From Candidatus Kaiserbacteria bacterium (GTDB lineage Bacteria > Patescibacteriota > Minisyncoccia > Phycocordibacterales > UBA2100): 64,000 bases of DNA. The translations under genes were made by a program, and so were the position numbers. The notes under the pieces are model-generated. The model ran no database searches. It worked only from the letters and a program-made list of their open reading frames with translations, and was not told the origin of the DNA. Below are positions 41,901 through 62,637 of the stretch, piece by piece (positions within the stretch are counted from its first letter, which is position 1; each line of letters starts with the position of its first letter). The DNA lies in the NCBI GenBank assembly GCA_028286585.1, contig JAQBRI010000009.1, positions 28,010 to 92,009 of the forward strand, read 5' to 3'.

Positions 41901-44900
41901 GTAAACCCGCCTGAGTTTGATGTCACCGTGTACGTTGTGATTGCAGCACCACCGTTACTAACAGGCGGAGTAAATGTAATTGTTGCTTGGCCGTTACCTG
42001 CTGTAGCGACTGCTCCCGTAGGTGCATTTGGAACAGTTGCTGGTGTCACAGAATTGCTTAGTGTCGAGGAGGTACTTGTGCCAACGCCATTAGTTGCAGT
42101 AACGGTAAATGTGTATGCGGTGCCATTGGTAAGACCGGTCACAGTAAGTGGAGAACTGATACCAGTGACATTAAAGCCGCCAATGTTTGATGTGACCGTG
42201 TAGTTTGTAATCGCAGAACCGTTGTTACTTCCTGGTGTAAAGGTAATTGTTGCCTGACCATTTCCACCAACTGCAGTAACGCTTGTTGGAGCACTCGGGA
42301 CACCTGCCGGCGTGATTGAATTGCTTATTCCCGAAGATGTACTTGTTCCTGCAGAATTATTTGCAGTTACAGTAAACGCATAGACTACTCCGTTTGAGAG
42401 ACCGGTCACTGTGATTGGTGAAGAACCACCTGTTGCAGTAAAGCCTCCAACATTTGAAGTAACAGTGTACGTTGTGATTGCAGCACCGCCATTACTTACG
42501 GGTGGAGTAAACGAAATTGTTGCCTGCGTATCCCCTCGCACTGCTGTCACACTTGTCGGAGCATCTGGAATTGTTGCTGGAGTGACCGATGCGCTCGCAC
42601 TCGAACTAGCACTCGTTCCAACTGAGTTAGTAGCAGTTACTGTAAATGTATATGCCGTTCCGTTTGTTAAACCAGTTACCGTGATTGGTGAAGATCCGCC
42701 GGTTGCAGTAAAGCCACCTGTGTTTGAAGACACTGTATATGTTGTGATTGCAGCGCCACCGTTACTTACAGGCGGAGTAAAGGTTACGGTCACTTCTCCA
42801 TTGCCTCTCGTGACGGTTCCTATTGTCGGCGCGTTCGGAGTAGTAGCAGGAACAACCGTGTTACTCGTTGCCGATGCGGTACTTGTTCCTGCTGAGTTAG
42901 TTCCCGTTACGGTAAAGGTGTACGTTGTTCCATTTGTGAGACCAGTAATTGTAATTGGCGAAGATCCGCCGGTTGCAGTAAAGCCACCTGTGTTTGATGA
43001 GACCGTGTACGTTGTGATTGCAGATCCCCCATTACTTACAGGTGGTGTAAAGGAAACAGTTGCTTGACCATTTCCAGCGACTGCAGAAACGCTAGTTGGG
43101 GCACCCGGTGCAGTCGCCGGAGTTATTGTATTACTGGTGCCAGAATTTGTACTCGTACCGATTGCGTTTGTTTCGGTGACAGTAAATGTGTATGCCGTTC
43201 CGTTTGTTAAACCTGTTACAGTTATTGGTGAAGAGCCACCAGTTGCAGTGAAGCCGCCGGTGTTTGATGAGACTGTATAGATCGAAATACTTGAACCATT
43301 GTTATTGCCAGGTGTAAACGAAATTGTTGCTTGGCCATTTCCGGCAACTGCGGTTACGCTTGTTGGAGCACTCGGGACTCCCGCAGGTGTGATAGCATTA
43401 CTCGTACCAGAGGCGGTACTTGTTCCCGCCGAGTTAGTAGCAGTTACTGTAAAAGTATAAATCGTACCGTTGGTAAGACCGGTTATTGTAATCGGTGAAG
43501 ATCCACCAGTTGCTGTGAGGCCTCCCACATTTGATGAGACTGTGTATGTTGTTACAGCAGAGCCGCCGTTATTCACTGGCGGAGTAAACGATATGGTAGC
43601 CTGCGTGTCGCCGCGAACTGCGCTAACACTTGTCGGCGCGTCCGGTACTGTAGCTGGTGTCACCGAACTACTAGCACTCGAACTTGCGCTCGTTCCAACC
43701 GCATTTGTTGCGGTTACTGTAAACGTGTACGCTGTGCCATTCGTTAGACCTATTAGTGTTATTGGTGAAGAGCCGCCAGATGTTGTAAAGCCGCCTGTGT
43801 TTGATGAGACGGTGTAAAGAGTAATTGGTGAACCGCCTGTATTTCCTGGTGTAAAAGAAATGGTTACCTGCCCATTACCCGCCGTCCCTATTACACTAGT
43901 AGGTGCATCAGGAATTGTCGCCGGTGTCGCAGAATTTGTTGCGTTCGAGGCCGTACTCGTACCAACTGAGTTAGTAGCAGTTACTGTAAATGTGTATGCC
44001 GTTCCGTTTGTTAAACCTGTTACAGTTATTGGTGAACTACCACCTGTTGCAGTGAATCCTCCTGTGTTTGATGTAACGGTGTAGCCAGTTATTGCAGAAC
44101 CTCCGTTACTTACGGGTGGTGTAAATGTAATTGTTGCCTGAGTGTTACCACGTGTCGCGGTTCCTATAGTTGGTGCGTCTGGCACAGTTGCAGGAACCAC
44201 ACTATTACTTGTACTTGATGGAGTACTCGTTCCCAACGCACTACTTGCCGTCACTGTAAACGTGTACGTTGTTCCGTTCACAAGTCCAGTTATTGTAATT
44301 GGTGAAGAGCCACCTGTTGCAGTGAATCCCCCAGTGTTTGATGAGACCGTGTACGTTGTGATTGCAGATCCCCCATTACTTACTGGTGGTGTAAACGTAA
44401 TTGTTGCTTGGCCATTACCGCCGGTTGCAGTGACACTAGTTGGGGCACCCGGTGCAGTCGCCGGTATCACACTGTTACTAGCAATTGACGCAGTGCTTGT
44501 ACCAACGGCGTTCGTTGCCGTAACTGTAAACGAATAGGAAATTCCATTGGTAAGGCCGGTCACAACAATTGGTGAGCCACTTCCCGTTCCAGTAAAGCCG
44601 CCAACGTTTGAAGTAACCGTGTACGTTGTGATAGCAGAGCCGCCGTTATTCACTGGCGGAGTAAACGATACAGTAGCTTGAGTATCACCGCGAACTGCAC
44701 TCACGCCGGTTGGCGCACCTGGCACTGTTGCAGGAACAACACTATTACTCGTTCCCGAAGGAGAGCTTGTACCAGCGGAATTAGTAGCAGTTACCGTGAA
44801 TGTGTACGTTGTGCCATTAACAAGTCCGGTAATCGTAATCGGAGAACTTCCGCCGGTTGCGGTAAAACCGCCGGTGTTTGAAGACACTGTATATGTTGTG

Positions 44901-47900
44901 ATTGCAGTGCCACCATTACTGACTGGAGGAGTAAATGTGATTGTTGCTTGGCCGTTACCACGTGTTGCCGTTCCTATAGTTGGTGCACCAGGCGCTGTAG
45001 CTGGTGTTACTGCATTACTAGTACCCGAAGAAATACTGGTACCTGACGCGTTCGTTGCCGTTACTGTAAATGTGTACGTTGTTCCATTTGTGAGACCAGT
45101 AATTGTGATTGGTGAGCTGCCGCCGGTTGCGGTAAAACCGCCGGTGTTTGATGAGACAGTATAATTTGTAATTGGTGAGCCTCCCGAATTTACTGGAGGT
45201 GCAAAAGTAATAGTTGCTTGTCCATTTCCGGGAACTGCCGTAACACTCGTCGGCGCATTTGGTACCGTTTGATAATTTAAATATGCATAAGTAGTTCCCG
45301 GCGTAATCGCCCAAACTGGCGAAACAAAATCCCAGTTTGTATATGTCGCCTGGGTCTTCAATGCAGTAGTAGTTGTACCTGTCATTCCTGCCGGATCGGC
45401 ACCATTACCAACACCATTACTTTTGCCAGATGTAACGTTGTCCCAATAATCAGATACGTAAGATCCACCGATTGGATTTCCAACAATGCCTCCCACATAT
45501 TGAAGTGCCGCAGCACCAGTTGCTCCTGAGGCGCCCGCGGCGCCTCCTGTTCCTCCTGTTCCTGCAGCGCCTCCTGTTCCACCTGTTGCACCACTCGTTT
45601 TGGTGCCTGTCGGCACACCTGTTGCGTATGTATTTGTAATCACCGCATTATTACTTCCAAACAATCCTCCAGCATACGCGTTTCCGCCAGCACCTCCGGC
45701 GCCGCCTGTTGCACCCGTACCATTTACACCAGCCACTCCGCCTCCTGCTGCTCCGGCGTTTCCGCCAGCACCTCCTATCGCACCGGTTCCCGGAGTTCCG
45801 GCCGTAATAGTGACGTTTCCACGTGCGTAAGTATTTGTTATAACTCCCGTGTTCTGACCAACAAGTCCTCCGCCTGTCACATCACCTCCAACACCTCCTG
45901 TGCCGCCAGTTCCTCCAGTGGCTCCTGCACCACCGTTTCCAGATCCACCCGATCCACCAACGCCTCCGTTTCCGCCCTTTCCGCCGACCGCACCATTGCC
46001 TCCGTTGCCTCCTGTTATGCTTACGTTTCCGGATGAATAACTCGTATTAAAAGTTCCGGTCGCAAGATCTGCTCCCATAAGCCCGCCCGCAAATGATGCG
46101 CCGCCGGCACCACCATTTCCTCCTGCTACAGAAGCACCACCTGCGCCACCGGCAAGTGTTCCGCCTGCGCCACCTGTACTAACGGTACCCGAGAGTCCTG
46201 CGGAGGCACCAGCGCCACCAACAAGTGAGACATTTCCTGATGACCACGAAGAGAGCACAGTACTTCCCGAAGCGTTTTGTCCGACAAGTCCGCCAGCATA
46301 TGCTGCGCCTCCGGCGCCTCCCGCCGCAGTTGCACCCATTGCTCCGCCTATACCACCTGCGCCGGTTGGACCACCCGCGCCGCCGTTTCCTCCGACACCA
46401 CCTGCACCACCTACGCCGCCAGCAGAGCCGTTTACGTTCACGGCTCCAGTTCCATATGAAGTAGAAATCGTTCCGCCATTATTTTGTCCAACAAAACCAC
46501 CGCCATACGCGATACCTCCAACACCTCCTGCAGTACGTGCGCCAGCAATGCCGCCAGTTCCGCCAGTTCCCGCAACAATTCCTGCGCCGCCCGCCGCACC
46601 ATTTCCTCCCAATCCGCCAACGCCTCCTGCGCCGCCGGTTACCGTAACAGAACTGTTTGCATATGAATCTTTAATCGTTCGCCCAGTATTGTTATATCCA
46701 TTAAATCCACCCGCGTATGCAATACCTCCAACACCAGCCGCGCCCGCTGAACCGCCCGCGCCGCCTGTCGCACCATTTGCAGCCGTTGCGATTCCGCCGG
46801 CAACTCCAGCGCCGCCAGTTCCTCCAACACCTCCTGCACCAGCCGAACCCAAAACTGTTGTTGACGCGTAGGACCCCGAAAGCACGGTTCCATCATTAAA
46901 GCCAATGAGTCCGCCCGTATAAAGAACTCCTCCAGAAACTGCTGCGCCGCCTGCACCACCTGCACCACCAACTCCGGCTGCTCCAGGTAATCCTCCTATG
47001 CCTCCTGTACCACCGGACCCGCCGACTCCACTCGTGCCAGTAACAGATGCGCCAATTGCATAACTTGTTGCAATAGTATTAAGCGCATTCACGTTGTTAC
47101 CAATGAGTCCGCCCGAGTAGGACGCGCCACCAATTCCTCCAGCACCTCCTGTTCCGCCAGTGCCTCCAACATGTGCACTTGTTCCGAGACTTCCATCGCC
47201 GCCCGCGCCGCCTGTCGCACCAGTTGCACCGTTTTTAGCAATCGAAACAACACTACCTAATGCAAACGAATTTAAAACAACTCCGATTGCGGTATTGTGT
47301 GCAATGAGTCCTCCAACATATGCTGCACCTCCTGCTCCTCCTGCTCCTCCTGCTCCACCCGAGGCGGCAGTACTACCCGATACACTTCCAGAAGCACCTC
47401 CCGCAGCTCCCGCTCCCGGTGTTCCTGCAGTGCCACTCGTTGAAGTAGCATTTCCTGTCGCGTATGAATTTCCTTGAATCGTACCAAAGTTAAAAGCGAC
47501 AAGTCCGCCGGCATATGCTGCACCGCCCACGCCGGTAGCGCCACCCAAGCCGCCGGTTCCTCCGATTGATCCAGATCCACCGGCGCCACCAATCACTCCC
47601 GCCGCGCCATTACCGCTGGTGCCGCCATTTGCAATAACATTGTCAGTTGAATAACTTGAAGTAATGATGAGGTTGTTACTCGCGGTAGCACTGGTGCGCC
47701 CTACCAACCCACCGGCATATGCAGCACCGCCAGCTCCCGACGTACCTCCACCGCCCGTTGCAGCACCAACTGCCGCGGATCCGCTGGTGCCAGAGGCTCC
47801 TGCGCTTCCTCCATTTCCTCCTGTGCCACTTGTCGAGGTTACAATATTGCCTGTTGCATATGAAGTAAGAACGTTATTGGCCCCGGTTGTCGCACCAGTA

Positions 47901-50900
47901 AATCCAGCTAATCCTCCTGCGTTACCGTCGCCTCCTGCTCCGCCAATTCCGCCGGCACCTCCCGCGCCGCCAACAGAACTTGCTGCACCATTTGCACCAA
48001 CTCCTCCTGTGTTTCCAGTGCTTCCAATACCACCCGTTGCGGAAACTGCTCCCGTTGCATAACTATTCACTATATCGCTTTGTCCCCCTGTTGTAACAAA
48101 ATTCAATCCAATCAAGCCGCCGGCAAAACCCGAACCGCCGGCTGCAGCAAGCACAGCGCCACCGCCAGCACCTCCTGCAACTGTTGTTCTAGATGCGCCA
48201 CCATTTCCGGACGTTCCTGCTGTTCCCGCATTTCCGCCGGTTGAAGAAGCATTCCCAGTAGCATAATCAAAACTATAATTTACGATTCCAGAAGTAACAT
48301 TAGTGTACCCAACCAAACCACCTGCGTTACCATCGCCTCCGATACCTGCCGAACCGCCAAGTGCTCCTGCCGAACCTGCATGAGTTACGGTTCCGGTTGA
48401 ACCATCACCTCCCACACCACCTGCTCCACCAGTGCCTCCAGTTCCGCCGGTGACCGTAGCATTTCCCGTTGCATATGAATTAAGTATTTGTAATGTTTGT
48501 GTAGTTGCATTTATACGTCCAACGAGTCCTCCGCCATACGTCACACCACCTGCACCACCGGCACCTCCTGCACCACCTGCAGCTGCAATACCACTTGCAA
48601 TTGTGCTACCACTCGTGCCTCCTGCTCCTCCCACTCCTCCCGTTCCTCCAGTACCTCCCGTGACTGAAAAAGAAATCGAGGAGTACGAATTATTCTGAAT
48701 TGTTCCAAGGTTATCACCAACAAGTCCACCATAACTACGAGCGCTTCCGGCGCCTCCTGCACCTCCTGCAGTTCCTGTACCTCCGGCAAAGGCGCCTACT
48801 CCAGTTCCGCCCGCACCGCCAATTCCGCCGGTTCCTGCCGTTTGCTCAGTTCCCGAAATCGCGATCGTATCAGAATACGATGTTGTAATAATTCCGGCAG
48901 CACTATTAAATCCCGCAAGACCTCCAACAAATGTACCGCCGCCCGCGCCTCCTACGCCTCCAACTCCGCCGGCACCTCCTGCACTTCCAGCTGCAAGTCC
49001 CGAGCCTCCAGCACCGCCATTTGCACCATTTCCCATTGCACCGCCCGCGACACTAATATTTCCTTTTCCAGATCCGGCATCAACACTTGCATACGACGCA
49101 ATAATTTCGGATGCGTTATTTCCTACAAGTCCACCGACATGAATCAAACTGGACGCGCCACCGGCTCCGCCTGCTGATCCCGCTGCACCACCACCCGCCG
49201 CTCCGCTTCTTCCAGCGGTTCCGTTTTGTCCTGCACCCCCAGTCACATTGAGTGCAGTCTTTGAATACGAAGTCTGAATAACTCCGATCGAATATCCCAC
49301 AAGACCACCGACATATACGCCGCCGCCAGCACCTCCTGCACCACCTGCGCCTGCAATACCATAAAGCGCTGTTCCTGTTCCAACTCCGCCCGCGCCGCCC
49401 TGCGCGCTTGCTCCGCCGGCACTCCCTGTCACGGTAACGGTTCCCGTTTGTGAGTATGAATTAGTAATTGTTCCAACAAAGTTTTGTCCAACGAGTCCGC
49501 CGGCCTGCAGTGCACCAGCAACGAGTCCGCCGCCAGCACCTCCGGCACCGCCCACTCCGCCAGTACCACCTAAGTGGTTGGTCGCGAGTGTTCCATCGCC
49601 GCCCGCACCACCGACACCTCCTGCACCACCTGACCCACCAGTTGCATTCACATCGGATGTTGCATATGAATTATTTATAATTCCAGCAACGGTATTGTTT
49701 CTTCCTACCAAACCGCCTACGTTAACTGCTCCGGCCACACCGCCAGAAGCACCTGCGCCGCCCGCTGCTGCTGTGCCAGCTGAAATATTTCCCGAAGCTC
49801 CTGCAGTACCTCCAGCGCCCGCGGCACCACCGGCACCAGAAAAAGCACTTACTGCTCCTGTTGTATGAAAACTGCTTTGAATTGTGGTTGGACTGTCTCC
49901 CACCAAACCTCCCGTATAGTTAACTCCTCCACCTCCACCGACTGCTCCATTACCACCAGCACCCCCAAGAGACGCGGACCCTCCTGCACCACCGGCACCA
50001 CCAGAGCCCGATGCTCCACCTGCTCCCGATGTTCCTCGGATAATTCCTGTTGAACTTGATGTCGCAATATTTCCTCCAGAAGCTGCTGCTGCTGCGACAA
50101 GGCCACCTGCGTAGGATGCGCCGCCCAATCCAGCAGCTCCACCAGTTGCACCCGCTCCTCCCGCCGAGGCTGTACCGCCAGCACCTCCGGCGCCGCCATT
50201 TCCTGCAGCACCGCCCACTCCGGCAAGGACAGTCACGTTACCTGATGTAAATGAATTTCCAATAAAAACGTTTGTGTTTGTAAATCCAAGGAGTCCACCT
50301 CCGTTTGCAAATCCTCCTGCGCCTCCAATTCCTCCTACTGCTCCCGCGCCGCCCGTTATAGAATTTGTTACCCCGCTTCCGCCCGCGCCACCTACTGCAC
50401 CTGCACCGCCCGCTCCGCCCGTTACTGTTATGTTTCCTGAAGCGCGAGAATTATTTATCGACTGTCCAGTTCCCGAGTTAAATCCTTCGAGTCCGCCTGC
50501 GTATGCACCAAAGTTAAGTGCTCCGCCGCCTCCGCCCGCGCCACCAGTTCCACCGACTGCTCCATTTGTACCGGCAACTGCCGCACCGCCCGCACCACCG
50601 CTGCCTTCTGTAATAGTGACATCGTCGGATGATGACAATGATTCAATAATCACATCTGCAAGCGAATTGAGTCCGATAGCTCCGCCACTATAGATTGGTC
50701 CGGCAACACCACCCGCGCCTCCGGTTCCACCAGTTCCATTTCTTCCACTTCCCGATCCGCCCGCGCCGCCAGTTCCGCCAGTTCCCCCAACACCACCCGA
50801 ACCGCCAAGAGTTACAGTAATTGTTCCTCCACTACTTGAAGAGGAGGCAATATTTCCATTACCTTGTCCTGCGAGACCGCCAATATATACCACGCCACCT

Positions 50901-53900
50901 CCGCCGCCGGTACCTCCAGTTCCTGCTACTCCGCCTGCATGCCCTCCTGTTCCCAATGTTCCGTCTCCGCCATTTCCACCTGCGCCTCCCGTTCCGCCAC
51001 TTCTTCCGCTTGCGGTAAGACTACCAATAACGATGTCATTAATAAGGACTCCTGAGTTATCGCCAACAAGTCCACCGATGTATTCGGCACCGCCAACTCC
51101 ACCGATACCTCCGGTCCCTCCCGTTGCACCGGTGCCTCCGGCAATATTTCCCGAAGCACCAGCGGCACCTCCCGCTCCCGCGCCACCCGCGGCTCCTCCC
51201 ACAACACTAATAGAAGTAATTGTGTATGTTACGTCTCGAATGATTCCAGTATTGAAACCCATGATGCCTCCGCCCGCAGCAAGTCCGCCGGTACCACCGG
51301 CACCTCCTGCGCCGCCCGCTCCACCAATTGCTCCGGCTGTACTGCCGCCGGCACCACCCACTCCACCTGTGACGCCAGTACCTCCGGCACCTCCCGTTGA
51401 AGAAATAGTTCCAGTAGTATTTGGAAGACTGATTGTTGTTCCTAGGACACTATCGTTACCAATCACTCCTCCTGCGTATGACGCACCACCGACTCCTCCT
51501 GCACCTGATGTAATTCCCGCAGCTCCTGCAACACCAGCGCCCGATGTTCCAGGAGTTCCGGCAAGTCCACCATTTCCCGCAGCTCCGCCAAGAGCAACAG
51601 CATTGCCCGCAGCATATGAATCAGGACTTACGACCGCTGCATTAAATCCAACAAGGCCGCCCGCAGCGGCAAGTCCTCCGGCTTCGCCACTCAATCCGGC
51701 GACACCTCCCGTTGTACCAGCCGATCCGCCGGCAAACGCACCCGAAGAATTTCCTCCGTTTCCGGTTGTCGCTCCCGCCGCTCCTACTCCACCGGTTGCA
51801 AGTGCGTTACCTGATGCGTGCGAACCATTTTGAATTATTCCGTTTGTCGTATTAAAACCGACGAGTCCGCCCGCGTACGCAAGACCTGCGGCGTTTGATG
51901 CTGCAGCACTAGCCGAAGTATTTCCTCCAGCGCCGCCTGTTGTACCAGCTCCACCATTTCCTCCGCTGCCGCCGGCACCTCCCGCCCCGCCCGTCGCTGA
52001 GGCATTGCCTGTTGCGTACGAACCATTAATTACTCCACTACTATTTCCCGCGAGTCCTCCTGCGTACGCTGCCTTACCCAAAGCAACAGCAGCGCCTGCG
52101 CCGCCCGCAGCACCAGTGCCTCCGACACCTCCGTTACCACCGCTTCCAGTTACACCCGCGGTTGAAGTTGCGTTAATAGTCGCGTGTGATCCCAAAATGA
52201 CACCGCTTGTTGAATTGTTTGCGACGAGTCCGCCGGCGTATGCAAACCCGCCAAGCGAAACACTTGTTCCGCCAACTCCACCAACTCCGCCCAAAGCACC
52301 ACTTCCACCTGTGCCCCCTGCTCCACCATTTGCGCCTATTCCACTTGCTCCACCTTGTGAGATTACAGAACCGGATTCTATATATGCATTTATTATTGTC
52401 GAAGTATTCAAGCCGACGAGACCACCAGCAAACGAGTCCCCACCCGCGCCAGCAGTTCCCCCTGTTGCACCCACCGCACCAACATGTGATGACCCTCCTG
52501 CTGATCCGTTTCCAGCAACACCCGCTGCTCCACCATTTTTTCCAGTTGATCCGGTTGCAACAATACTTCCGGACGCGTATGAATTTATTATTTCGTTTAA
52601 GTTGTTACCCACGAGTCCGCCCGCGTATGCAATAGCACCAGCGCCACCGTTTCCGCCAAGTCCACCTGCTGCTGCAGTACCCGAGTTAAACGTTGCAGTT
52701 GTAGCGCCTCCCGCACCACCTGCACCAGCATTTCCTGGCGTGCCTCCTACAGATGTGACATTGCCCGTTGAGTATGAAGTGGTTCGAATGATACCGCCGT
52801 TTTGTCCGACAAGACCTCCAGCCGTACTGATACCACCCGCGCCACCGTTGCCTCCGGTCGCTCCAACTCCACCAATCGCATTTGTTCCGCCGGTGCCTCC
52901 TGCACCACCCACTCCGCCAATGCCACCAGTTCCTCCGGTTACTGTCGTGCTACCGACCGCATAACTTGTAGTGACTGTTCCCAATGAAATGATACCAACG
53001 AGTCCTCCACCAAATGCGGCACCTCCTGCACCTCCCGTTCCACCCAATGCTCCAGCTCCACCTGTTGTACTTGCTGCTCCAGTTCCACCGGCACCTCCTG
53101 CACCTCCAATTCCGCCCGTGCCTCCAAGAGAATTAACGGTGCCCGTTGCGTAGGAAGTTAAAATTTCTCCAGTCGTCAAAAATCCAACCAAGCCTCCAAC
53201 ATACGCAATACCTCCGACAGCTCCTGTTCCTCCGGTAATGCCGGCCAAACTTGTACCACCCGCGCCACCTGCTGCTGCAGCACCGCCCGCGCCTGCTGTG
53301 CCGCTCACGTTCCCTGTTGAAAAATCATTGGTCAATGTTGATCCAGTGTTGTTTCCTACAAATCCGCCCGCATACACAATACCCCCCGCTGTTGCGGTAC
53401 CCGCAGCTCCGGCAAGTGCACCGGTGCCGCCCGCACCCCCTGCTCCTGCTGCACCTCCTGCGCCCGCAACACCTGTAACTGATCCAATAGTGTAATTACT
53501 ATCAGTAATTGTGAGTGCATTATTTCCAGCAAGTCCTCCAACATACAGAATTGCACCTGCTCCTCCAATACCACCCGCAAGACCGGCGAGTCCGGTGAGT
53601 CCTGTAACTCCGTTTGCTCCGGCACCTCCTGCGCCGCCGGTTCCATTTACAATATTTTGTGCACTCGATGTTTGAATGATTCCTGTATTACTTCCCACGA
53701 GTCCGCCGGCATATGTTGAAAGCACGTTTGCAGATCCGCCGGTGCCCGATGCACCGCCCGCACCTGACGTTCCACTTGAACCTTTGGTACCGCCCGCGCC
53801 TCCCGTGCCGCCAACTCCACCCGTGCCGCCAACAACAGTCACTAATCCAGTATTTGAAAAAGATGAAATAATTATTCCCGAGTTAAGACCAACAAGTCCT

Positions 53901-56818
53901 CCCGAATATGCTGCGCCTCCTGCGCCGCCTGCTGCTCCTCCTCCGCCTGTTCCTCCTATGTGTGCAGTTCCAAGAGATGCGTCACCTCCAGTTCCACCAA
54001 CTTGTCCAACTTTTCCCGTTGACCCAGTTGCAGTAACGGCGCCTGTCGCAAAGACCGCTGTTGTCGTACCAGTAATAATACCGCCAAGGTTATTTTGTCC
54101 AACGAGTCCGCCCGCATATGCTATAGCACCTGCTCCACCTACTCCGCCTGCACCACCAGTTGCTGCAGTGAGCGTAGTTGCAACAGCAGAAGCGCCGGCA
54201 GTTGCGCCAGCCGAACCATTGCCCGGTGTTCCTCCGGTTGATTGCACGACGCCTGTTGCGTTACTGCCCGTTTGAATTATTCCCAAGTTGTTTCCGACAA
54301 GTCCTCCGACATACGAAACACCGCCGGCTCCACCTGTGCCGCCGGCGCCTCCTGCTCCACCAATTGCAGCACCGCCTCCAGCACCACCTACGCCCGCAGT
54401 GCCGGCTGCTCCGCCCAATCCGCCGGTTCCGGTTACTGTTCCTGTTGCGGTAACAGAAGTCAGGATTCCTGCATTCACCCATCCGGCAAGGCCACCAACA
54501 TAATCAATACCTCCCGCTGCTGCAAGACCAACAGCTCCGCCTGCGCCTCCAATACCTGTTCCAGCATTAGCACCTCCGGCACCACTATTTCCAGAAGCAC
54601 CTCCTGCGCCTCCCGTTCCTATAACATTTACACCACTCGTTGCAGCTGTAATATTTCCTTGTTGAGAATAACCAACGACTCCACCAACGTAGACTGTTCC
54701 TCCCAATGCTGCCGCATTCGAAACACTTGCTCCGCCCGCGCCTGCCGTAGTCGCGCCGCTCGTTGTGTTTCCGCCTGCTGCCGCATTACCTGCTGCGCCT
54801 CCTGCACCTCCTACACCTGTTACATTTCCAGAAACACTTACGTTTGAAATCGTACCAATGTTGTATCCGACCAGTCCTCCCACATACATAGTTGCTGCAG
54901 CAGTTCCTGCCGTACCGGTTCCTCCAGCAGTTGGTGTCGTACCTGCAGTTCCAGCAGTTCCAGCGGTACCGGCAACACCCGCCGTACTTGTTGCACTAAT
55001 CAACTCGCCCGAGAGAATAACGTTTTTGATAGTGTTGTTAGAAAAACCAAAAAGACCAACATAGTTGAGCGTTGTCGTACTTATAAAAAGATTACTGATG
55101 GTAAAGTTTGCACCATCAAAGATTCCACTAAAGTTGGTTGTGTTATCGCCTATCGGCACAAAGCCTGCACCCAAGTTCCATCCCGATGTTACCGTCGCAT
55201 TAATATTATTATTAAGTTTGTATGAGTTGGTAAGTCCGGTTCGAATACCCTGCAAACCATATACGTCGTACGTAATAAAAGGATCGGTACTCACGCCAAT
55301 GCCGGTATATCGTCTAAAGGTTCCCGCTGTTACCGAAAAGTTTCCCGTCGCAGCAAATGTATTGGTGCCGGGATTGTTTGCAACAAAAGTTGCGGCTGAT
55401 GATTGCACATAATTTCCCGACAAACCTCCAGCGTTCGAAATCGTAAGACTCGCATTTTGTGTAATGGTACCAGTGTAGCCGGCGATCGTGAGCGATCCAA
55501 TAGTAAAAGCAGTATCAATGTTTGATGCGTTTGATCCTGTATCAAATATCACATCGGTGTTTACATCAGGAGTAGAAGCACCGGACGCGCCGTTAGATGT
55601 TGCCGACCAGCTTCCGGTCGAGCTCCACAAAGCGCCCGAAGCACCAACCCAGTATCGTGTCGTCGGGTCGACGACATAATCAATATCAACATTTCCAATA
55701 ATCTTAAGATCAAACTCGTCGGTCGGAGTTTGAAGATTGGTCAAAAGAATACGGTACTTTCCATCATGATCAATTGCATCAAACGTGCCGACAAGTACAC
55801 CATCAAGTGTGTACACTTCTACGCGCACCGATGCACCATCGTGTGACCGAGCATACAACGTAATGTCTTTTGTATTGTCGAGCAGCTGTGCAAACGTAAC
55901 GCGCACAAACTGTCCGTCAGAAATATTTGCATACTGCTGGTCTTGCGATTGCAAGAGTGGATACACATCGCCAATTGTATTTTTGTTTGCATCAAGTTGC
56001 AGTGCCTTCGAAATATAAATAATGGTAAATGTCTGAGTCGACAAGTGCGGCACGATCCACGCAACATGATCTATGTATCCGTTACCATCGTCATCAAACG
56101 ATTGAAACTCCATAACTTGATTTGCATTGTTCTGCCAATTTATTTTTATCTGATCTTCTTGACCAACCTTAAATATTTCTGGAATAGCAGTTCGCACCGG
56201 TACGTTCAAGATTGGTGTTATTTCATTTTCAAGATCCGCGACAGATACGACAACTGTCTTGCCATTGTCGTTTGTGTGTTCGGTGATCGTAGGCACCTGC
56301 ACCAGAATCGGTAACGCAAGATCCGAAGTCGATGCAGTATTTTGTGAATTTAAAAAAGTATCAGTCGACGTTGCTGTCAAAATTGCAGCACCACCTGAAC
56401 TAGTAAAAATATTTTGCACAGAACTCGATGCGCTGGTGTTATCAGAAATTATTTCTGTCGAAGATGCTTGAGTAAATGAAGTATCAGTTGAAGTTGCAAT
56501 ACTACTGCTCGCATTAATTACTTCACTTTGTAAACTATCGGTAGAAGTCGTTGCGGGGGGCTGTATTTTAGCATCACCCGAATCCTGTGAAACTTGGCTT
56601 CCCTGCCCAACCTGGTCGTCGGAGCTGGTAGCGACTGGCGCAGGAGTAGTCGCATCCTCTGTTGAAGTTACGATTACAGTATTTGTATCAGTGACAATTG
56701 GCGTTGCATCATCAGCATGCGTCGATACAACGTTTCCAAATAATATTCCAAGTACAAAAAAAACCCCTACAACAATTTGTAGCGGTAATCGGAATATTCT
56801 AAAAAATGGCTCAATCAC
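38993..56818 (-). CDS. Giant (5941 aa) cell-surface protein: signal-anchor, Ser/Thr-rich stalk, beta-rich N-domain, about 3200 aa of Gly-rich GLUG-like repeats, 21 fibronectin type III domains, unknown C-domain, poly-Gly linker, C-terminal type-I dockerin
   Basis: Single uninterrupted ORF with GTG start. Repeated YVGGLVG.N.G.I..SYATGNV..GG.GG.GGAGG units. FN3 units PNAPTSVTAV.GNGQATITFTPPVSNGG.AIT.YTVSSNTGGFTATGGSSPITITGLTNGTTYTFTVTATN repeated 19 times almost verbatim plus 2 divergent. C-terminus DINGDGKVNGIDFSILLAYWK...DLNHDGKVDSVDFSILLYHWKK is two calcium-binding dockerin repeats (DxNxDGxVNxxD). Preceded by 16 consecutive Gly. Confidence 0.85.
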   Translation of the reverse strand: MIEPFFRIFRLPLQIVVGVFFVLGILFGNVVSTHADDATPIVTDTNTVIVTSTEDATTPAPVATSSDDQVGQGSQVSQDSGDAKIQPPATTSTDSLQSEVINASSSIATSTDTSFTQASSTEIISDNTSASSSVQNIFTSSGGAAILTATSTDTFLNSQNTASTSDLALPILVQVPTITEHTNDNGKTVVVSVADLENEITPILNVPVRTAIPEIFKVGQEDQIKINWQNNANQVMEFQSFDDDGNGYIDHVAWIVPHLSTQTFTIIYISKALQLDANKNTIGDVYPLLQSQDQQYANISDGQFVRVTFAQLLDNTKDITLYARSHDGASVRVEVYTLDGVLVGTFDAIDHDGKYRILLTNLQTPTDEFDLKIIGNVDIDYVVDPTTRYWVGASGALWSSTGSWSATSNGASGASTPDVNTDVIFDTGSNASNIDTAFTIGSLTIAGYTGTITQNASLTISNAGGLSGNYVQSSAATFVANNPGTNTFAATGNFSVTAGTFRRYTGIGVSTDPFITYDVYGLQGIRTGLTNSYKLNNNINATVTSGWNLGAGFVPIGDNTTNFSGIFDGANFTISNLFISTTTLNYVGLFGFSNNTIKNVILSGELISATSTAGVAGTAGTAGTAGTTPTAGGTGTAGTAAATMYVGGLVGYNIGTISNVSVSGNVTGVGGAGGAAGNAAAGGNTTSGATTAGAGGASVSNAAALGGTVYVGGVVGYSQQGNITAATSGVNVIGTGGAGGASGNSGAGGANAGTGIGGAGGAVGLAAAGGIDYVGGLAGWVNAGILTSVTATGTVTGTGGLGGAAGTAGVGGAGGGAAIGGAGGAGGTGGAGGVSYVGGLVGNNLGIIQTGSNATGVVQSTGGTPGNGSAGATAGASAVATTLTAATGGAGGVGGAGAIAYAGGLVGQNNLGGIITGTTTAVFATGAVTATGSTGKVGQVGGTGGDASLGTAHIGGTGGGGAAGGAGGAAYSGGLVGLNSGIIISSFSNTGLVTVVGGTGGVGGTGGAGGTKGSSGTSGAGGASGTGGSANVLSTYAGGLVGSNTGIIQTSSAQNIVNGTGGAGGAGANGVTGLTGLAGLAGGIGGAGAILYVGGLAGNNALTITDSNYTIGSVTGVAGAGGAAGAGGAGGTGALAGAAGTATAGGIVYAGGFVGNNTGSTLTNDFSTGNVSGTAGAGGAAAAGGAGGTSLAGITGGTGAVGGIAYVGGLVGFLTTGEILTSYATGTVNSLGGTGGIGGAGGAGGTGAASTTGGAGALGGTGGAGGAAFGGGLVGIISLGTVTTSYAVGSTTVTGGTGGIGGVGGAGGTGGTNAIGGVGATGGNGGAGGISTAGGLVGQNGGIIRTTSYSTGNVTSVGGTPGNAGAGGAGGATTATFNSGTAAAGGLGGNGGAGAIAYAGGLVGNNLNEIINSYASGSIVATGSTGKNGGAAGVAGNGSAGGSSHVGAVGATGGTAGAGGDSFAGGLVGLNTSTIINAYIESGSVISQGGASGIGANGGAGGTGGSGALGGVGGVGGTSVSLGGFAYAGGLVANNSTSGVILGSHATINATSTAGVTGSGGNGGVGGTGAAGGAGAAVALGKAAYAGGLAGNSSGVINGSYATGNASATGGAGGAGGSGGNGGAGTTGGAGGNTSASAAASNAAGLAYAGGLVGFNTTNGIIQNGSHASGNALATGGVGAAGATTGNGGNSSGAFAGGSAGTTGGVAGLSGEAGGLAAAGGLVGFNAAVVSPDSYAAGNAVALGGAAGNGGLAGTPGTSGAGVAGAAGITSGAGGVGGASYAGGVIGNDSVLGTTISLPNTTGTISSTGGAGGTGVTGGVGGAGGSTAGAIGGAGGAGGAGGTGGLAAGGGIMGFNTGIIRDVTYTITSISVVGGAAGGAGAGGAAGASGNIAGGTGATGGTGGIGGVGGAEYIGGLVGDNSGVLINDIVIGSLTASGRSGGTGGAGGNGGDGTLGTGGHAGGVAGTGGTGGGGGVVYIGGLAGQGNGNIASSSSSGGTITVTLGGSGGVGGTGGTGGAGGSGSGRNGTGGTGGAGGVAGPIYSGGAIGLNSLADVIIESLSSSDDVTITEGSGGAGGAAVAGTNGAVGGTGGAGGGGGALNFGAYAGGLEGFNSGTGQSINNSRASGNITVTGGAGGAGAVGGAGGSGVTNSITGGAGAVGGIGGAGGFANGGGLLGFTNTNVFIGNSFTSGNVTVLAGVGGAAGNGGAGGAGGTASAGGAGATGGAAGLGGASYAGGLVAAAAASGGNIATSSSTGIIRGTSGAGGASGSGGAGGAGGSASLGGAGGNGAVGGGGGVNYTGGLVGDSPTTIQSSFHTTGAVSAFSGAGGAAGAGGTAGASGNISAGTAAAGGAGASGGVAGAVNVGGLVGRNNTVAGIINNSYATSDVNATGGSGGAGGVGGAGGDGTLATNHLGGTGGVGGAGGAGGGLVAGALQAGGLVGQNFVGTITNSYSQTGTVTVTGSAGGASAQGGAGGVGTGTALYGIAGAGGAGGAGGGVYVGGLVGYSIGVIQTSYSKTALNVTGGAGQNGTAGRSGAAGGGAAGSAGGAGGASSLIHVGGLVGNNASEIIASYASVDAGSGKGNISVAGGAMGNGANGGAGGSGLAAGSAGGAGGVGGVGGAGGGTFVGGLAGFNSAAGIITTSYSDTIAISGTEQTAGTGGIGGAGGTGVGAFAGGTGTAGGAGGAGSARSYGGLVGDNLGTIQNNSYSSISFSVTGGTGGTGGVGGAGGTSGSTIASGIAAAGGAGGAGGAGGVTYGGGLVGRINATTQTLQILNSYATGNATVTGGTGGTGGAGGVGGDGSTGTVTHAGSAGALGGSAGIGGDGNAGGLVGYTNVTSGIVNYSFDYATGNASSTGGNAGTAGTSGNGGASRTTVAGGAGGGAVLAAAGGSGFAGGLIGLNFVTTGGQSDIVNSYATGAVSATGGIGSTGNTGGVGANGAASSVGGAGGAGGIGGAGGDGNAGGLAGFTGATTGANNVLTSYATGNIVTSTSGTGGNGGSAGASGTSGSAAVGAATGGGGTSGAGGAAYAGGLVGRTSATASNNLIITSSYSTDNVIANGGTSGNGAAGVIGGAGGSGSIGGTGGLGGATGVGGAAYAGGLVAFNFGTIQGNSYATGNATSTSGTAGTPGAGAAGGASGSVSGSTAASGGAGGAGGAGGAAYVGGLIAHNTAIGVVLNSFALGSVVSIAKNGATGATGGAGGDGSLGTSAHVGGTGGTGGAGGIGGASYSGGLIGNNVNALNTIATSYAIGASVTGTSGVGGSGGTGGIGGLPGAAGVGGAGGAGGAAVSGGVLYTGGLIGFNDGTVLSGSYASTTVLGSAGAGGVGGTGGAGVAGGIATAANGATGGAGGSAGAAGVGGIAYAGGFNGYNNTGRTIKDSYANSSVTVTGGAGGVGGLGGNGAAGGAGIVAGTGGTGGIAGARTAGGVGGIAYGGGFVGQNNGGTISTSYGTGAVNVNGSAGGVGGAGGVGGNGGAGGPTGAGGIGGAMGATAAGGAGGAAYAGGLVGQNASGSTVLSSWSSGNVSLVGGAGASAGLSGTVSTGGAGGTLAGGAGGASVAGGNGGAGGASFAGGLMGADLATGTFNTSYSSGNVSITGGNGGNGAVGGKGGNGGVGGSGGSGNGGAGATGGTGGTGGVGGDVTGGGLVGQNTGVITNTYARGNVTITAGTPGTGAIGGAGGNAGAAGGGVAGVNGTGATGGAGGAGGNAYAGGLFGSNNAVITNTYATGVPTGTKTSGATGGTGGAAGTGGTGGAAGASGATGAAALQYVGGIVGNPIGGSYVSDYWDNVTSGKSNGVGNGADPAGMTGTTTTALKTQATYTNWDFVSPVWAITPGTTYAYLNYQTVPNAPTSVTAVPGNGQATITFAPPVNSGGSPITNYTVSSNTGGFTATGGSSPITITGLTNGTTYTFTVTATNASGTSISSGTSNAVTPATAPGAPTIGTATRGNGQATITFTPPVSNGGTAITTYTVSSNTGGFTATGGSSPITITGLVNGTTYTFTVTATNSAGTSSPSGTSNSVVPATVPGAPTGVSAVRGDTQATVSFTPPVNNGGSAITTYTVTSNVGGFTGTGSGSPIVVTGLTNGISYSFTVTATNAVGTSTASIASNSVIPATAPGAPTSVTATGGNGQATITFTPPVSNGGSAITTYTVSSNTGGFTATGGSSPITITGLVNGTTYTFTVTASSALGTSTPSSTSNSVVPATVPDAPTIGTATRGNTQATITFTPPVSNGGSAITGYTVTSNTGGFTATGGSSPITVTGLTNGTAYTFTVTATNSVGTSTASNATNSATPATIPDAPTSVIGTAGNGQVTISFTPGNTGGSPITLYTVSSNTGGFTTSGGSSPITLIGLTNGTAYTFTVTATNAVGTSASSSASSSVTPATVPDAPTSVSAVRGDTQATISFTPPVNNGGSAVTTYTVSSNVGGLTATGGSSPITITGLTNGTIYTFTVTATNSAGTSTASGTSNAITPAGVPSAPTSVTAVAGNGQATISFTPGNNNGSSISIYTVSSNTGGFTATGGSSPITVTGLTNGTAYTFTVTETNAIGTSTNSGTSNTITPATAPGAPTSVSAVAGNGQATVSFTPPVSNGGSAITTYTVSSNTGGFTATGGSSPITITGLTNGTTYTFTVTGTNSAGTSTASATSNTVVPATTPNAPTIGTVTRGNGEVTVTFTPPVSNGGAAITTYTVSSNTGGFTATGGSSPITVTGLTNGTAYTFTVTATNSVGTSASSSASASVTPATIPDAPTSVTAVRGDTQATISFTPPVSNGGAAITTYTVTSNVGGFTATGGSSPITVTGLSNGVVYAFTVTANNSAGTSTSSGISNSITPAGVPSAPTSVTAVGGNGQATITFTPGSNNGSAITNYTVTSNIGGFNVTGISSPLTVTGLTNGTAYTFTVTATNGVGTSTSSTLSNSVTPATVPNAPTGAVATAGNGQATITFTPPVSNGGAAITTYTVTSNSGGFTASGSGSPITVTGLTNGTAYTFTVTATNGVGTSTSSTLSNSVTPATAPGAPTSVSAVAGNGQATITFTPPVSNGGSAITNYTVSSNTGGFTATGGGSPITITGLTNGTTYTFTVTASNNVGTSTASSASNSVTPVTVPNAPTAVTAVSGNGQATVSFTPGSNNGSAITNYTVSSNTGGFTASGGSSPITITGLTNGTTYTFTVTATNAVGTSTPSGTSNTVVPATTPNAPTSVTAVSGNGQATITFTPPVNNGGAAVTSYTVTSSSGGLTATGGSSPITVTGLTNGTTYTFTVTATNAAGTSTASSASNSVIPGTVPNSPTGISAVGGNGQATITFTPPVSNGGAAITNYTVSSNTGGFTATGGSSPITITGLTNGTTYTFTVTATNSIGTSTSSGTSNSVTPATVPDAPTSISAVAGNGQATVSFTPPVSNGGAAITNYTVSSNTGGFTATGGSSPITITGLVNGTTYTFTVTATNNVGTSTSSGTSNSVVPAGGPSAPTSVAAVGGDGTATITFSPPSFTGGSAITSYTVTSNIGNFTATGGSSPITVTGLTNGTAYTFTVTATNAIGTSISSAATNSVTPATVPDAPTNLAAAIADSSVNLTWSAPGFNGGSPITSYTVTSNGGVFSTTTNGTSATIQGLTNGTTYTFTVTATNAVGTSTSSGTSNAATPASVPGAPINLAAIVQDSSINLSWSAPISNGGSPVTDYVVEYKLSSGGTWSIFSDGISTTPTTMVTSLSNNNSYDFRISAKNLVGRGTTTIPVSATPGAPAQVLIQSFSGLTVPSIATAVRITNEGSIAYEYQYTWCVTDSATNSCGGGDDIFSSTAAKLIQPGANFDTTLSSTVPVIGTYWFHVAVQYGSASSSASQSFTAIAAPVQNPGNGGGGGGGGGGGGGGGDNSPPVATPAATTEVIGDINGDGKVNGIDFSILLAYWKTKPPFKNNKVDLNHDGKVDSVDFSILLYHWKK
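39205..39252 (-). repeat. (GGN)16 simple repeat encoding a poly-Gly linker before the dockerin
   Basis: Plus strand cctccgcctcccccacctcctccacctccgccaccgccacctcc; protein GNGGGGGGGGGGGGGGGGDN. Confidence 0.8.
39700..45265 (-). repeat. Tandem array of about 20 near-identical repeats of about 270-285 bp, each encoding one FN3 domain
   Basis: DNA visibly repeats: the triplet sequence ...gtaactgtaaatgtgtacgttgttccatttgtgagaccagtaattgtaattggtgaagagccacc... recurs at about 275-bp spacing through the region. Confidence 0.85.
45400..55000 (-). repeat. Degenerate tandem repeats (about 180-210 bp units) encoding Gly-rich GLUG-like modules; extreme strand compositional skew (coding strand GGN-rich)
   Basis: Plus strand is dominated by CCNCC/GCNCC runs (antisense of GGN codons), generating many spurious Pro/Ala-rich plus-strand ORFs. 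Confidence 0.8.
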
Positions 56819-62635: not shown

Positions 62636-62637
62636 AT

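What the first reader, a model, noticed from the sequence alone, without database searches (positions are those of the whole stretch)
45400..55000. About 9.6 kb of Gly-rich GLUG-like modules with extreme strand asymmetry
About 50 degenerate units of the form YAGGLVG.N.G.I..SYATGNV...GG.GG.GGAGG make up more than half of the protein. The unit resembles the GLUG motif seen in IgA-protease-type and other surface proteins, interspersed with long (GGX)n tracts. It is likely a beta-helix or polyglycine-II-like fibre. At DNA level the coding strand is almost pure GGN plus GCN/ACN, so the opposite strand is CC-rich. This produces dozens of false Pro/Ala-rich ORFs in the six-frame track, and the region could be prone to G-quadruplex or i-motif-like structures and to replication slippage.
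Basis: partly seen in the sequence, partly recalled or inferred. Interest (0 to 1): 0.55.

Follow-up and report, generated by a model that had tools for sequence, protein, structure and literature searches.

The report
Glycine-clad GLUG beta-helix surface fibre
The flagged region is the core of one intact 5,941-residue surface-fibre gene of an ultra-small (Patescibacteria) bacterium. It holds 49 GLUG beta-helix repeats, each with a roughly 40-residue Gly-Gly-X insertion, and its length is almost unchanged in related species. It is a conserved structural rod, not unstable DNA.

Summary
Window 45407-54886 (minus strand) encodes 49 units of about 65 aa, which is 53% of a single intact 5,941-aa ORF (38993-56818). 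Each unit is a roughly 27-aa GLUG head plus a roughly 38-aa (GGX)n tail. Coding-strand GC skew is +0.31.

All 150 best GLUG arrays in 1.84 billion proteins have a 26-35 aa period, apart from one at 44 aa. The 65-aa unit is therefore a variant. It is conserved in about 30 Patescibacteria genomes. Eighteen orthologues align over all 3,129 aa with about 1% gaps, and tail glycines are 89% identical.

The DNA-level ideas fail. There are no canonical G4 or i-motif sequences, no DNA tandem repeat, and no sign of slippage.

The protein also has a signal or anchor segment, a conserved N-terminal domain, 21 FN3 domains, a poly-Gly run and a dockerin. It is most likely a fixed-length adhesion or spacer fibre. 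The fold and the function are inferred, not shown.

The parts
38993..56818 (-). Whole gene: intact ORF of 5,941 aa with a GTG start. It encodes a giant secreted or surface protein.
   Evidence: The orthologous ORFs stay open for more than 3,900 aa in about 25 Patescibacteria genomes.
56714..56818 (-). N-terminal hydrophobic segment (aa 1-35, ...LPLQIVVGVFFVLGILFGNVVSTHADD). It is a signal peptide or an N-terminal membrane anchor.
   Evidence: Read directly from the translation. Not tested with a predictor.
55529..56296 (-). Conserved N-terminal domain (aa ~175-430). It is shared with other Patescibacteria giant proteins and with DPANN archaea. It contains an EF-hand-like loop, DDDGNGYIDH.
   Evidence: 57-64% identity in orthologues, 35-46% in archaeal loci. 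Weak EF-hand hits.
54887..55528 (-). N-cap of the GLUG beta-helix (aa ~431-644), including a degenerate first rung, YVGLFGFSNNTIKNV.
   Evidence: 49% identity, E 9e-40, to the module that precedes each canonical GLUG array in P0045.
45500..54886 (-). Array of 48 complete 65-aa units (aa 645-3773). Each is a GLUG head of about 27 aa plus a (GGX)n tail of about 38 aa. The 49th head lies in the C-cap.
45269..45499 (-). Last GLUG head plus the C-cap (YWDNVTSG...TNWDF...W...Y.YL).
   Evidence: 38-40% identity, E 3e-7, to the C-caps of canonical GLUG arrays. Conserved in metagenome relatives.
39719..45268 (-). About 21 fibronectin type III domains of 90 aa each.
   Evidence: Pfam fn3, 21 stretches, E 7.8e-179. 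DNA tandem repeat with a 270-nt period, 17.5 copies, 69% matches.
39206..39250 (-). Run of 15 glycines (aa 5857-5871) that acts as a linker before the dockerin.
   Evidence: Relatives have 9-20 Gly at the same place.
39014..39157 (-). C-terminal dockerin type I domain.
   Evidence: Pfam PF00404, E 8.2e-11, 42.4 bits against a cut-off of 22.9. Relatives have a dockerin or, in one case, PG_binding_1.
56954..57439 (-). MarR-family regulator gene on the same strand, 135 nt upstream. It is a possible regulator. This is context only.
   Evidence: Pfam HTH_27/MarR.
36619..38974 (-). Two downstream same-strand ORFs (38105-38974 and 36619-38154) with Ig-like domains. They are possible co-transcribed surface partners. 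This is context only.
   Evidence: Pfam Big_13 at E 8.5e-7 and weak DUF7743 hits.

Best explanation
The region is the central rod of a real, intact giant cell-surface protein of a Patescibacteria (Candidate Phyla Radiation) bacterium.

**Architecture**
- It is a single GLUG-type right-handed beta-helix module: N-cap, 49 rungs, C-cap.
- Every rung has a roughly 38-residue glycine-rich insertion made of two GGX tracts of about 12-15 residues, separated by a short non-GGX linker.

**Most likely structure (inferred)**
- The GLUG heads stack on one another as in the IgA1-protease beta-helix.
- The GGX tracts adopt polyglycine-II/polyproline-II-like extended helices that pack along the side of the helix.
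- The result is a stiff, almost uncharged, Thr/Ser/Asn-decorated rod. Its length is fixed by the number of units.

**Function (inferred)**
- Other parts of the protein are the conserved N-terminal domain, a stalk of about 21 FN3 domains, a poly-Gly hinge and a C-terminal dockerin.
- With these, the protein most likely acts as a long fixed-length attachment or spacer fibre on the surface of an episymbiotic ultra-small cell.

**Status of each claim**
- Shown: gene integrity, GLUG homology, unit anatomy and conservation.
- Inferred: the polyglycine-II packing, which end is attached to the cell, and the adhesion or spacer role.
For: **Gene and homology**
- Intact 17.8-kb ORF.
- Pfam GLUG scores above the gathering cut-off.
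- The unit profile finds 13,117 GLUG proteins, but only its positions 1-32 align.
- The N-cap (E 9e-40) and C-cap (E 3e-7) are shared with canonical GLUG arrays.

**Predicted structure**
- AlphaFold2 with an internal-repeat alignment gives pLDDT 90.8 and pTM 0.84. The heads form short strands. The tails are as confident as the heads but have no helix or strand.
- The Foldseek top hit is the nine-PPII-helix springtail antifreeze protein 7jjv, E 1.3e-5.
- Glycine shows a 3-residue periodicity. The X residues are A, T, V, S, I and N.

**Conservation**
- About 25 orthologues have 44-54 heads, a median period of about 65 and Gly 0.31-0.32.
- Units are collinear between species. Orthologous units are about 62% identical and paralogous units about 44%.
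- The 18-genome alignment covers 98-99% of the array with about 1% gaps. Tail Gly is 88.6% conserved. Tail non-Gly residues are 42% conserved against 23% expected from composition.

**Rest of the protein**
- 21 FN3 domains plus a dockerin. The same order recurs in metagenome relatives, one of which has a peptidoglycan-binding domain instead.
- CPR giant surface proteins are proposed to serve host attachment (PMC8080830).
Against: - No experimental structure or expression data exist.
- The single-sequence AlphaFold run failed (pLDDT 32). The confident model rests on a pseudo-alignment of slices of the same protein, some of which overlap the query. That may inflate confidence.
- The Foldseek match to the PPII antifreeze protein is local only (TM 0.13/0.27, rmsd 21 A). 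It partly reflects glycine content.
- I could not inspect coordinates or backbone angles. Whether the tails pack laterally or form extra rungs is therefore not settled.
- Pfam PGRS matches are insignificant (best E 0.12).
- The function is inferred from domain content and from the lifestyle of related organisms only.
Confidence: 0.6

Rival explanations
1. The glycine-rich tails are intrinsically disordered, elastic linkers, like an entropic spring or a silk- or elastin-like segment. The array would then be a flexible tether rather than a rigid rod.
For: - The tail sequence is low-complexity.
- Single-sequence AlphaFold gives pLDDT 32.
- HMMER finds no family for long slices.
Against: - Tail glycines are 88.6% conserved and tail lengths are essentially invariant (about 1% gaps) across 18 species at about 60% identity. 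Non-Gly tail residues are conserved well above the compositional expectation.
- pLDDT in the tails equals that of the heads when an alignment is supplied.
- From general knowledge of beta-helices, an isolated 27-aa GLUG rung cannot fold on its own. The heads must therefore stack.
Confidence: 0.15
2. The tails form additional beta-helix or beta-roll rungs (RTX-like or generic). The rod would then be a plain but longer beta-solenoid of about three rungs per unit, with no polyglycine-II packing.
Against: - DSSP assigns no strands in the tails although strands are called in the heads.
- The RTX motif GGxGxD occurs only 7 times in 3,129 aa, and acidic residues are about 1%.
- The GGX triplet period matches PGII, not the 9-residue RTX period.
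Confidence: 0.15
3. The flat, uncharged, Thr/Ser/Asn- and Gly-rich surface is a binding face for ice, mineral or polysaccharide, as in PPII-bundle antifreeze proteins. It would not be a host-attachment spacer.
For: - The best Foldseek hit is a springtail antifreeze protein.
- Only 2.1% of residues are charged and there is no Cys.
- Many relatives come from groundwater or lake metagenomes, judging from the record titles.
Against: - The match is local and driven by composition.
- FN3 domains, a dockerin or PG-binding end and a conserved tip domain are typical of adhesins and fibres.
- No ice-binding assay or cold-specific distribution was examined.
Confidence: 0.05
4. The main significance is at DNA level. 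The G-rich/C-rich asymmetry would form G-quadruplex or i-motif structures and drive slippage or phase variation of the gene.
For: Strong GC skew of +0.31 and 200 two-tetrad G2 motifs on the coding strand.
Against: - There are no G3+ quadruplex or C3+ i-motif patterns on either strand.
- The G2 motif count equals the synonymous-shuffle expectation.
- GGG codons are depleted.
- There is no DNA tandem repeat of unit length.
- Orthologues show virtually no length variation.
Confidence: 0.03
5. The ORF is a pseudogene, an assembly artefact of a repeat, or a mis-called gene.
For: - Relatives in databases are mostly fragments, and some look frameshifted (P0002).
- One orthologue (L001) carries an in-frame TGA.
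Against: - 17.8 kb is open in a single frame.
- The units are diverged, so repeat collapse during assembly is unlikely.
- About 25 independent genomes keep the frame open for more than 3,900 aa, with unit-by-unit collinearity.
Confidence: 0.02

Closest known systems
Canonical GLUG-motif arrays (Pfam PF07581) in giant bacterial surface proteins, and the N-terminal beta-helix of Gram-positive IgA1 metalloproteases (PDB 7jgj, 7uvk, 3n6z)
   Same: - The same head motif, xVGGLVGxNxGxIxNSYATGxV.
- The same N-cap and C-cap modules.
- A weak direct sequence match to IgA1-protease rungs.
   Different: - Canonical arrays have a 26-35 aa period (mode 27-28) and a spacer Gly fraction of 0.06-0.23 in 149 of the 150 best representatives. 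Here the period is 65 aa because every rung carries a roughly 38-aa (GGX)n insertion.
- Canonical modules have about 6-15 rungs between caps and are reiterated. Here one module has 49 rungs.
- There is no protease domain.
Polyproline-II / polyglycine-II helix bundle proteins: springtail and snow-flea antifreeze proteins (PDB 7jjv, 2pne, 3bog). From my own knowledge, also the PGII sandwich of phage S16 gp38 and the predicted PGRS domains of mycobacterial PE_PGRS proteins
   Same: - GGX triplet periodicity with small X residues.
- Confident non-helix, non-strand segments in the model.
- A local Foldseek match to 7jjv at E 1.3e-5.
- GGAGGxGG strings like those in PGRS.
   Different: - Those proteins are small (80-150 aa) stand-alone bundles or are PE-linked. 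Here the GGX tracts are insertions in a beta-helix rung, repeated 49 times.
- There is no global superposition (TM at most 0.27).
- Pfam PGRS is not significant (best E 0.12).
RTX beta-roll repeats (GGxGxD nonapeptides)
   Different: There is no conserved Asp and no 9-residue period. GGxGxD occurs 7 times in 3,129 aa. Calcium binding is therefore unlikely.
Giant surface proteins of CPR and other ultra-small or predatory bacteria (for example Vampirococcus, PMC8080830; Omnitrophota giant genes, 10.1101/2023.11.21.568195)
   Same: - Multi-thousand-residue, repeat-rich extracellular proteins with FN3 and dockerin modules in organisms with tiny genomes.
- A proposed role in attachment to host or prey.
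   Different: The papers I could search describe neither GLUG arrays nor glycine-rich insertions. The architecture here is different.

Membership tests
GLUG motif repeats (Pfam PF07581) | Sequence match to the GLUG HMM above Pfam's gathering score. | tested here: met
   - Unit 1 scores 25.7 bits against a cut-off of 20.5, E 1.3e-5.
- 9 of 49 units match on their own at E<=1.
- The aa 1-700 slice scores 23.9 bits.
- Long slices return nothing, so the match is seen only when units are scanned singly.
GLUG motif repeats (Pfam PF07581) | Tandem arrangement with a period of about 27-30 residues, one motif per beta-helix rung. | tested here: not met
   The period here is 65 aa (56-74). The 150 best GLUG arrays have median periods of 26-35, apart from one at 44.
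GLUG motif repeats (Pfam PF07581) | The array is bounded by the characteristic N-cap (…DIDAS.T..WN.G.GF.PIG…F.G.FDG…I..L.I…YVGLFG) and C-cap (…YWD..TSG…T…M…T…WDF…W…YP.L). | tested here: met
   BLASTP to P0045 modules. N-cap: 49% identity, E 9e-40. C-cap: 38-40% identity, E 3e-7.
GLUG motif repeats (Pfam PF07581) | Right-handed parallel beta-helix fold as in the IgA1-protease N-terminal domain. | tested here: inconclusive
Polyglycine-II / PPII-helix bundle proteins (springtail antifreeze-like, PGII sandwich) | Glycine at two of every three positions (GGX or GXX register) over stretches of about 9-15 residues. | tested here: met
   - Glycine autocorrelation is 0.33, 0.28 and 0.27 at lags 3, 6 and 9.
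- There are 30 strict and 48 relaxed GGX tracts of 10-24 residues.
- X is A, T, V, S, I or N.
Polyglycine-II / PPII-helix bundle proteins (springtail antifreeze-like, PGII sandwich) | Backbone in left-handed PPII/PGII conformation, with helices packed about 4.8 A apart. | not testable with these tools
The indirect evidence is that the tails have no DSSP helix or strand but high pLDDT, and a local Foldseek hit to 7jjv at E 1.3e-5 with a low TM-score.
Mycobacterial-type PGRS repeats (Pfam PF21526) | Significant match to the PGRS HMM. | tested here: not met
   Only 3 of 49 units match, with a best E of 0.12.
RTX calcium-binding beta-roll | GGxGxDxUx nonapeptide with a conserved Asp. | tested here: not met
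   There are 7 GGxGxD in 3,129 aa. Asp is 1.0% and Glu 0.3%.
Collagen-like triple helix | Gly-X-Y repeats rich in Pro. | tested here: not met
   The register is GGX, not GXY, and there are only 12 Pro in 3,129 aa.
Dockerin-bearing extracellular proteins | C-terminal type I dockerin (duplicated EF-hand-like calcium loops). | tested here: met
   PF00404 scores 42.4 bits against a cut-off of 22.9, at aa 5888-5935. It is conserved in relatives. No cohesin partner was searched for.

The most novel reading that the evidence does not exclude
The array is a previously undescribed composite solenoid: a continuous 49-rung beta-helix in which every rung carries a hairpin of polyglycine-II helices. Because the roughly 4.8 A lateral spacing of PGII helices matches the 4.8 A rise of a beta-helix rung, the hairpins could tile into a continuous PGII sheet along the rod. 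This would be by far the largest PGII-containing assembly known. The near-absence of indels across Patescibacteria would mean that the rod acts as a molecular ruler. It would set a fixed distance between an ultra-small episymbiont and its host, or span a defined envelope layer.
Probability: 0.3. Interest if true: 0.75.

Novelty: new variant of a known kind. Interest (0 to 1): 0.55.

Why it matters
- **Biology of CPR bacteria.** Patescibacteria have genomes of about 1 Mb and depend on other cells, yet how they attach is largely unknown. In the complete 977-kb Falkowbacteria chromosome CP066698 the orthologue takes at least 11.8 kb, which is 1.2% or more of the genome. It is conserved unit by unit across many lineages, so it must matter to their biology. 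That makes it a concrete target for cryo-ET and metaproteomics.
- **Structural biology.** A beta-helix whose every rung is extended by GGX tracts would add a new way of building long rigid fibres. It would also provide a large natural example of polyglycine-II packing, which is currently known from only a handful of small proteins.
- **Annotation.** Such genes are usually fragmented in assemblies. HMM pipelines also miss them: Pfam returns nothing on 1,600-aa slices. Many 'hypothetical' Gly-rich fragments in metagenomes probably belong to this family.

Tried and rejected
- **Pfam on long slices.** Slices of 1,600-1,700 aa of the array gave no hit. Scanning units singly was needed.
- **Word-indexed homologue search.** A search with a 540-aa array slice gave only 2 hits, because low-complexity words saturated the candidate list.
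- **Single-sequence AlphaFold.** It failed, with pLDDT 32.
- **Source genome.** An exact-sequence look-up of the neighbouring MarR gene found nothing, so the source genome was not identified. The best relative is 64% identical over the N-terminal region.
- **Structure libraries.** afdb50 was unavailable. The viral library gave nothing significant.
- **Literature.** Searches for GLUG with Patescibacteria, for polyglycine II with PGRS or sandwich, and for giant genes found nothing describing this architecture.
- **Promoter and terminator scans.** Scans around the gene were uninformative.
- **Interpretations considered and rejected.** These were RTX beta-roll, collagen-like helix, PE_PGRS membership, G-quadruplex or i-motif hotspot, slippage-prone contingency locus, and pseudogene. 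The reasons are given under the rival explanations and the membership test.
Full report
**What is there**

The finding lies entirely inside one open reading frame on the minus strand, 38993..56818. It has a GTG start and encodes 5,941 aa. The protein has these parts, from N- to C-terminus:
- a hydrophobic N-terminal segment (aa 1-35);
- a conserved N-terminal domain (aa ~175-430);
- a Thr/Asn/Ser-rich module (aa ~431-644);
- the flagged array (aa 645-~3800);
- about 21 fibronectin type III domains;
- a run of 15 glycines;
- a C-terminal type I dockerin.

A MarR-type regulator gene lies 135 nt upstream on the same strand. Two ORFs with Ig-like domains follow downstream.

- Anchoring on the Y-x-G-G-L-V-G motif gives 49 units spaced 56-74 aa apart, median 65.
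- Their alignment gives the consensus YxGGLVGxNxxGxxIxxSYAxGxVxxTGGxGGxGGxGGAGGxGxxxxxGGAGGxGGxGGAGGxx.
- The array is 3,129 aa, 52.7% of the protein. It is 35.7% Gly, 16.9% Ala and 10.5% Thr.
- The coding strand has 36.9% G and 19.7% C, a GC skew of +0.305. This shows as a block of -0.29 to -0.33 on the + strand between 46 and 54 kb.
- Shadow ORFs are enriched. There are 92 open stretches of at least 60 codons in the non-coding frames. Only one frame is Pro/Ala-rich, with 18 stretches of up to 379 codons.
- 'Almost pure GGN/GCN/ACN' is an overstatement. Those codons make up 63% of the array.

**The heads are genuine GLUG repeats**

- Pfam finds nothing on 1,600-aa slices. Scanned singly, unit 1 scores 25.7 bits against PF07581 (cut-off 20.5), and 9 of 49 units match at E<=1.
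- A profile of the 49 units was searched against 1.84 billion representative proteins. It retrieves 13,117 proteins at E<=1e-3, and 457 at E<=1e-30. Only profile positions ~1-32, the head, align.
- The sequence before the array is 49% identical (E 9e-40) to the module that precedes every canonical GLUG array in P0045. The sequence after the array matches the canonical C-cap at E 3e-7.
- The array is therefore one GLUG module, N-cap to rungs to C-cap, with an unusually large number of rungs.

**The 65-aa unit is not the normal GLUG architecture**

- In 149 of the 150 best-scoring GLUG proteins the median distance between heads is 26-35 aa, usually 27-28. Glycine makes up 6-23% of the spacer.
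- One protein, P0189, is intermediate. Its period is 44 aa, with a short Gly/Asp/Tyr-rich insert.
- Here every rung carries a roughly 38-aa insertion that is 46% glycine. It has a strict three-residue periodicity, with autocorrelation 0.33, 0.28 and 0.27 at lags 3, 6 and 9. The X residues are A, T, V, S, I and N.
- The array has only 66 charged residues in 3,129, no Cys and 12 Pro. The RTX motif GGxGxD occurs only 7 times.

**Predicted structure**

- A single-sequence AlphaFold2 run was useless, with pLDDT 32.
- A second run predicted aa 3165-3465, using an alignment of 44 four-unit slices of the same protein. It gave pLDDT 90.8 and pTM 0.84, and four of the five models scored above 88.
- In that model each head forms three or four short strands. 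Each tail is as confident as the heads but has no DSSP helix or strand.
- The beta-helix of that protease is documented in PMC7695701.
- The 148 aligned residues equal about five heads of 29 residues. I infer that the heads stack directly on each other and that the tails are lateral excursions.
- The Foldseek top hit is the nine-polyproline-II-helix springtail antifreeze protein 7jjv, at E 1.3e-5 and probability 0.97. The TM-score is low (0.13/0.27), so the similarity is local.
- Taken together with the GGX periodicity, the most likely reading is a beta-helix core clad by polyglycine-II-type segments.
- I could not read coordinates, so this is an inference. The pseudo-alignment may also flatter the confidence.

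**Conservation**

- The window's genome is not in the collections searched. The best relatives are Patescibacteria MAGs. They are labelled Paceibacterota, Wolfebacteria, Falkowbacteria, Parcubacteria and 'Saccharibacteria', and are 57-64% identical over the N-terminal 450 aa.
- In about 25 of these genomes the ORF stays open for more than 3,900 aa, to the end of the DNA held. They have 44-54 heads, a median period of about 65 and Gly of 0.31-0.32.
- Units are collinear between species. Orthologous units are about 62% identical and paralogous units about 44-45%.
- A MAFFT alignment of the window protein with 18 orthologues covers 98-99% of the 3,129-aa array with about 1% gaps.
  - Head residues are 59% identical.
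  - Tail glycines are 88.6% identical.
  - Tail non-glycine residues are 42% identical, against 23% expected from composition.
- Unit number, and even individual tail lengths, are therefore fixed. This argues for a precisely folded, length-constrained structure.
- Metagenome relatives reached through the C-cap show the same order: array, C-cap, a variable number of FN3 domains, a poly-Gly run, then a dockerin. One relative has a peptidoglycan-binding domain instead of the dockerin.

**DNA-level claims**

- Neither strand contains a canonical G-quadruplex or i-motif pattern of four runs of three or more G or C with loops of 1-7.
- The 200 two-tetrad motifs equal the expectation from synonymous codon shuffling, 208 +/- 3.5.
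- GGG is used for 2.6% of glycines in the array, against 9.7% in 15 other ORFs of the window.
- Tandem Repeats Finder sees no array with a period of about 195 nt. It finds only a few 9-27-nt micro-repeats. It does detect the 270-nt FN3 array.
- With the near-absence of indels among orthologues, there is no support for structure-prone or slippage-prone DNA as the significant feature.

**Mechanism and function**

- Shown: a real, conserved, intact gene for a secreted multi-domain protein whose core is a GLUG array with regular GGX insertions.
- Inferred: the array forms a stiff, uncharged rod. From general beta-helix geometry it would be about 24 nm long if there is one 4.8-A rung per unit, and about 70 nm if the tails add rungs. 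The roughly 21 FN3 domains extend it further.
- The dockerin, or the peptidoglycan-binding domain in one relative, probably fixes the C-terminal end to a surface. The conserved N-terminal domain would then sit at the other end.
- Giant surface proteins of CPR bacteria are thought to mediate attachment to hosts (PMC8080830). I did not find this architecture described in the literature I could search.
- The strict length conservation suggests a spacer or ruler role. Nothing here tests that.

**Verdict**

The GLUG, beta-helix and polyglycine-II reading is supported at the level of sequence and prediction. The G4, i-motif and slippage reading is not supported. The object is a new variant of a known repeat family, conserved in Patescibacteria. 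It is structurally interesting and functionally untested.

Noticed in passing
window 55529-56296 (minus); loci L047-L079: The N-terminal ~210-330-aa domain of the giant protein also occurs in DPANN archaeal MAGs (Woesearchaeota, Pacearchaeota, Nanoarchaeota, Diapherotrites) at 35-46% identity. It also heads other Patescibacteria giant proteins with quite different C-terminal parts (FISUMP, DUF1566, BNR). It looks like a module shared by ultra-small bacteria and archaea.
   Followed up: partly
window 40430-45154: The FN3 region is a DNA-level tandem repeat: 270-nt period, 17.5 copies, 69% matches. The GLUG array is not. The number of FN3 domains varies among relatives, with 1,263-2,170 aa after the C-cap, whereas the GLUG array length is fixed.
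   Followed up: partly
window 39206-39250: A run of 15 glycines precedes the dockerin. It is encoded by an imperfect 9-nt repeat (CTCCTCCAC on the + strand). Relatives have about 9-20 glycines at the same position, so this short tract, unlike the big array, does vary in length.
   Followed up: partly
L001 20095-20097: One orthologue (Patescibacteria MAG JBBTSS010000011) has a single in-frame TGA where the others have a glycine codon, and the frame continues normally afterwards. It is a nonsense mutation or a sequencing error.
   Followed up: partly
L093 (metagenome contig Ga0182030_10004811), C-terminus of the orthologous ORF: A relative with the same 65-aa array ends in a peptidoglycan-binding domain (PF01471, E 2.3e-5) instead of a dockerin. 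This hints that the C-terminal end is the wall-binding end.
   Followed up: partly
window 60629-63003 (minus): A 668-aa protein fuses a Schlafen-group-3-like helicase domain (E 4e-67) to an S24 (LexA-like) peptidase. A MazG-like pyrophosphohydrolase gene follows immediately. This may be a defence or stress module.
   Followed up: no
protein P0189: This GLUG-array protein has an intermediate architecture. Its period is about 44 aa, and each rung is followed by a short Gly/Asp/Tyr-rich insert (for example GGDGGDAGYYWGGNGGNAYAGGF). Glycine-rich rung insertions may therefore have arisen more than once.
   Followed up: no
window 45500-54886 (minus): The array is almost uncharged, with 66 D/E/K/R in 3,129 residues. 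It has no cysteine. It uses the GGG glycine codon four times less often than other genes in the window.
   Followed up: partly
proteins P0001-P0006 and most loci: Database relatives of this protein are nearly all truncated at contig ends, and some look frameshifted (P0002). No full-length equivalent appears among the best 150 of 1.84 billion representative proteins, although this protein would score first at 981 bits. The family is systematically under-represented and unannotated.
   Followed up: partly
window 55990-56100 (minus), aa ~238-250: The N-terminal domain contains an EF-hand-like calcium-binding loop, DDDGNGYIDHVAW. The Pfam EF-hand hits are weak (E 0.004-0.07) but the loop is conserved in homologues.
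   Followed up: no
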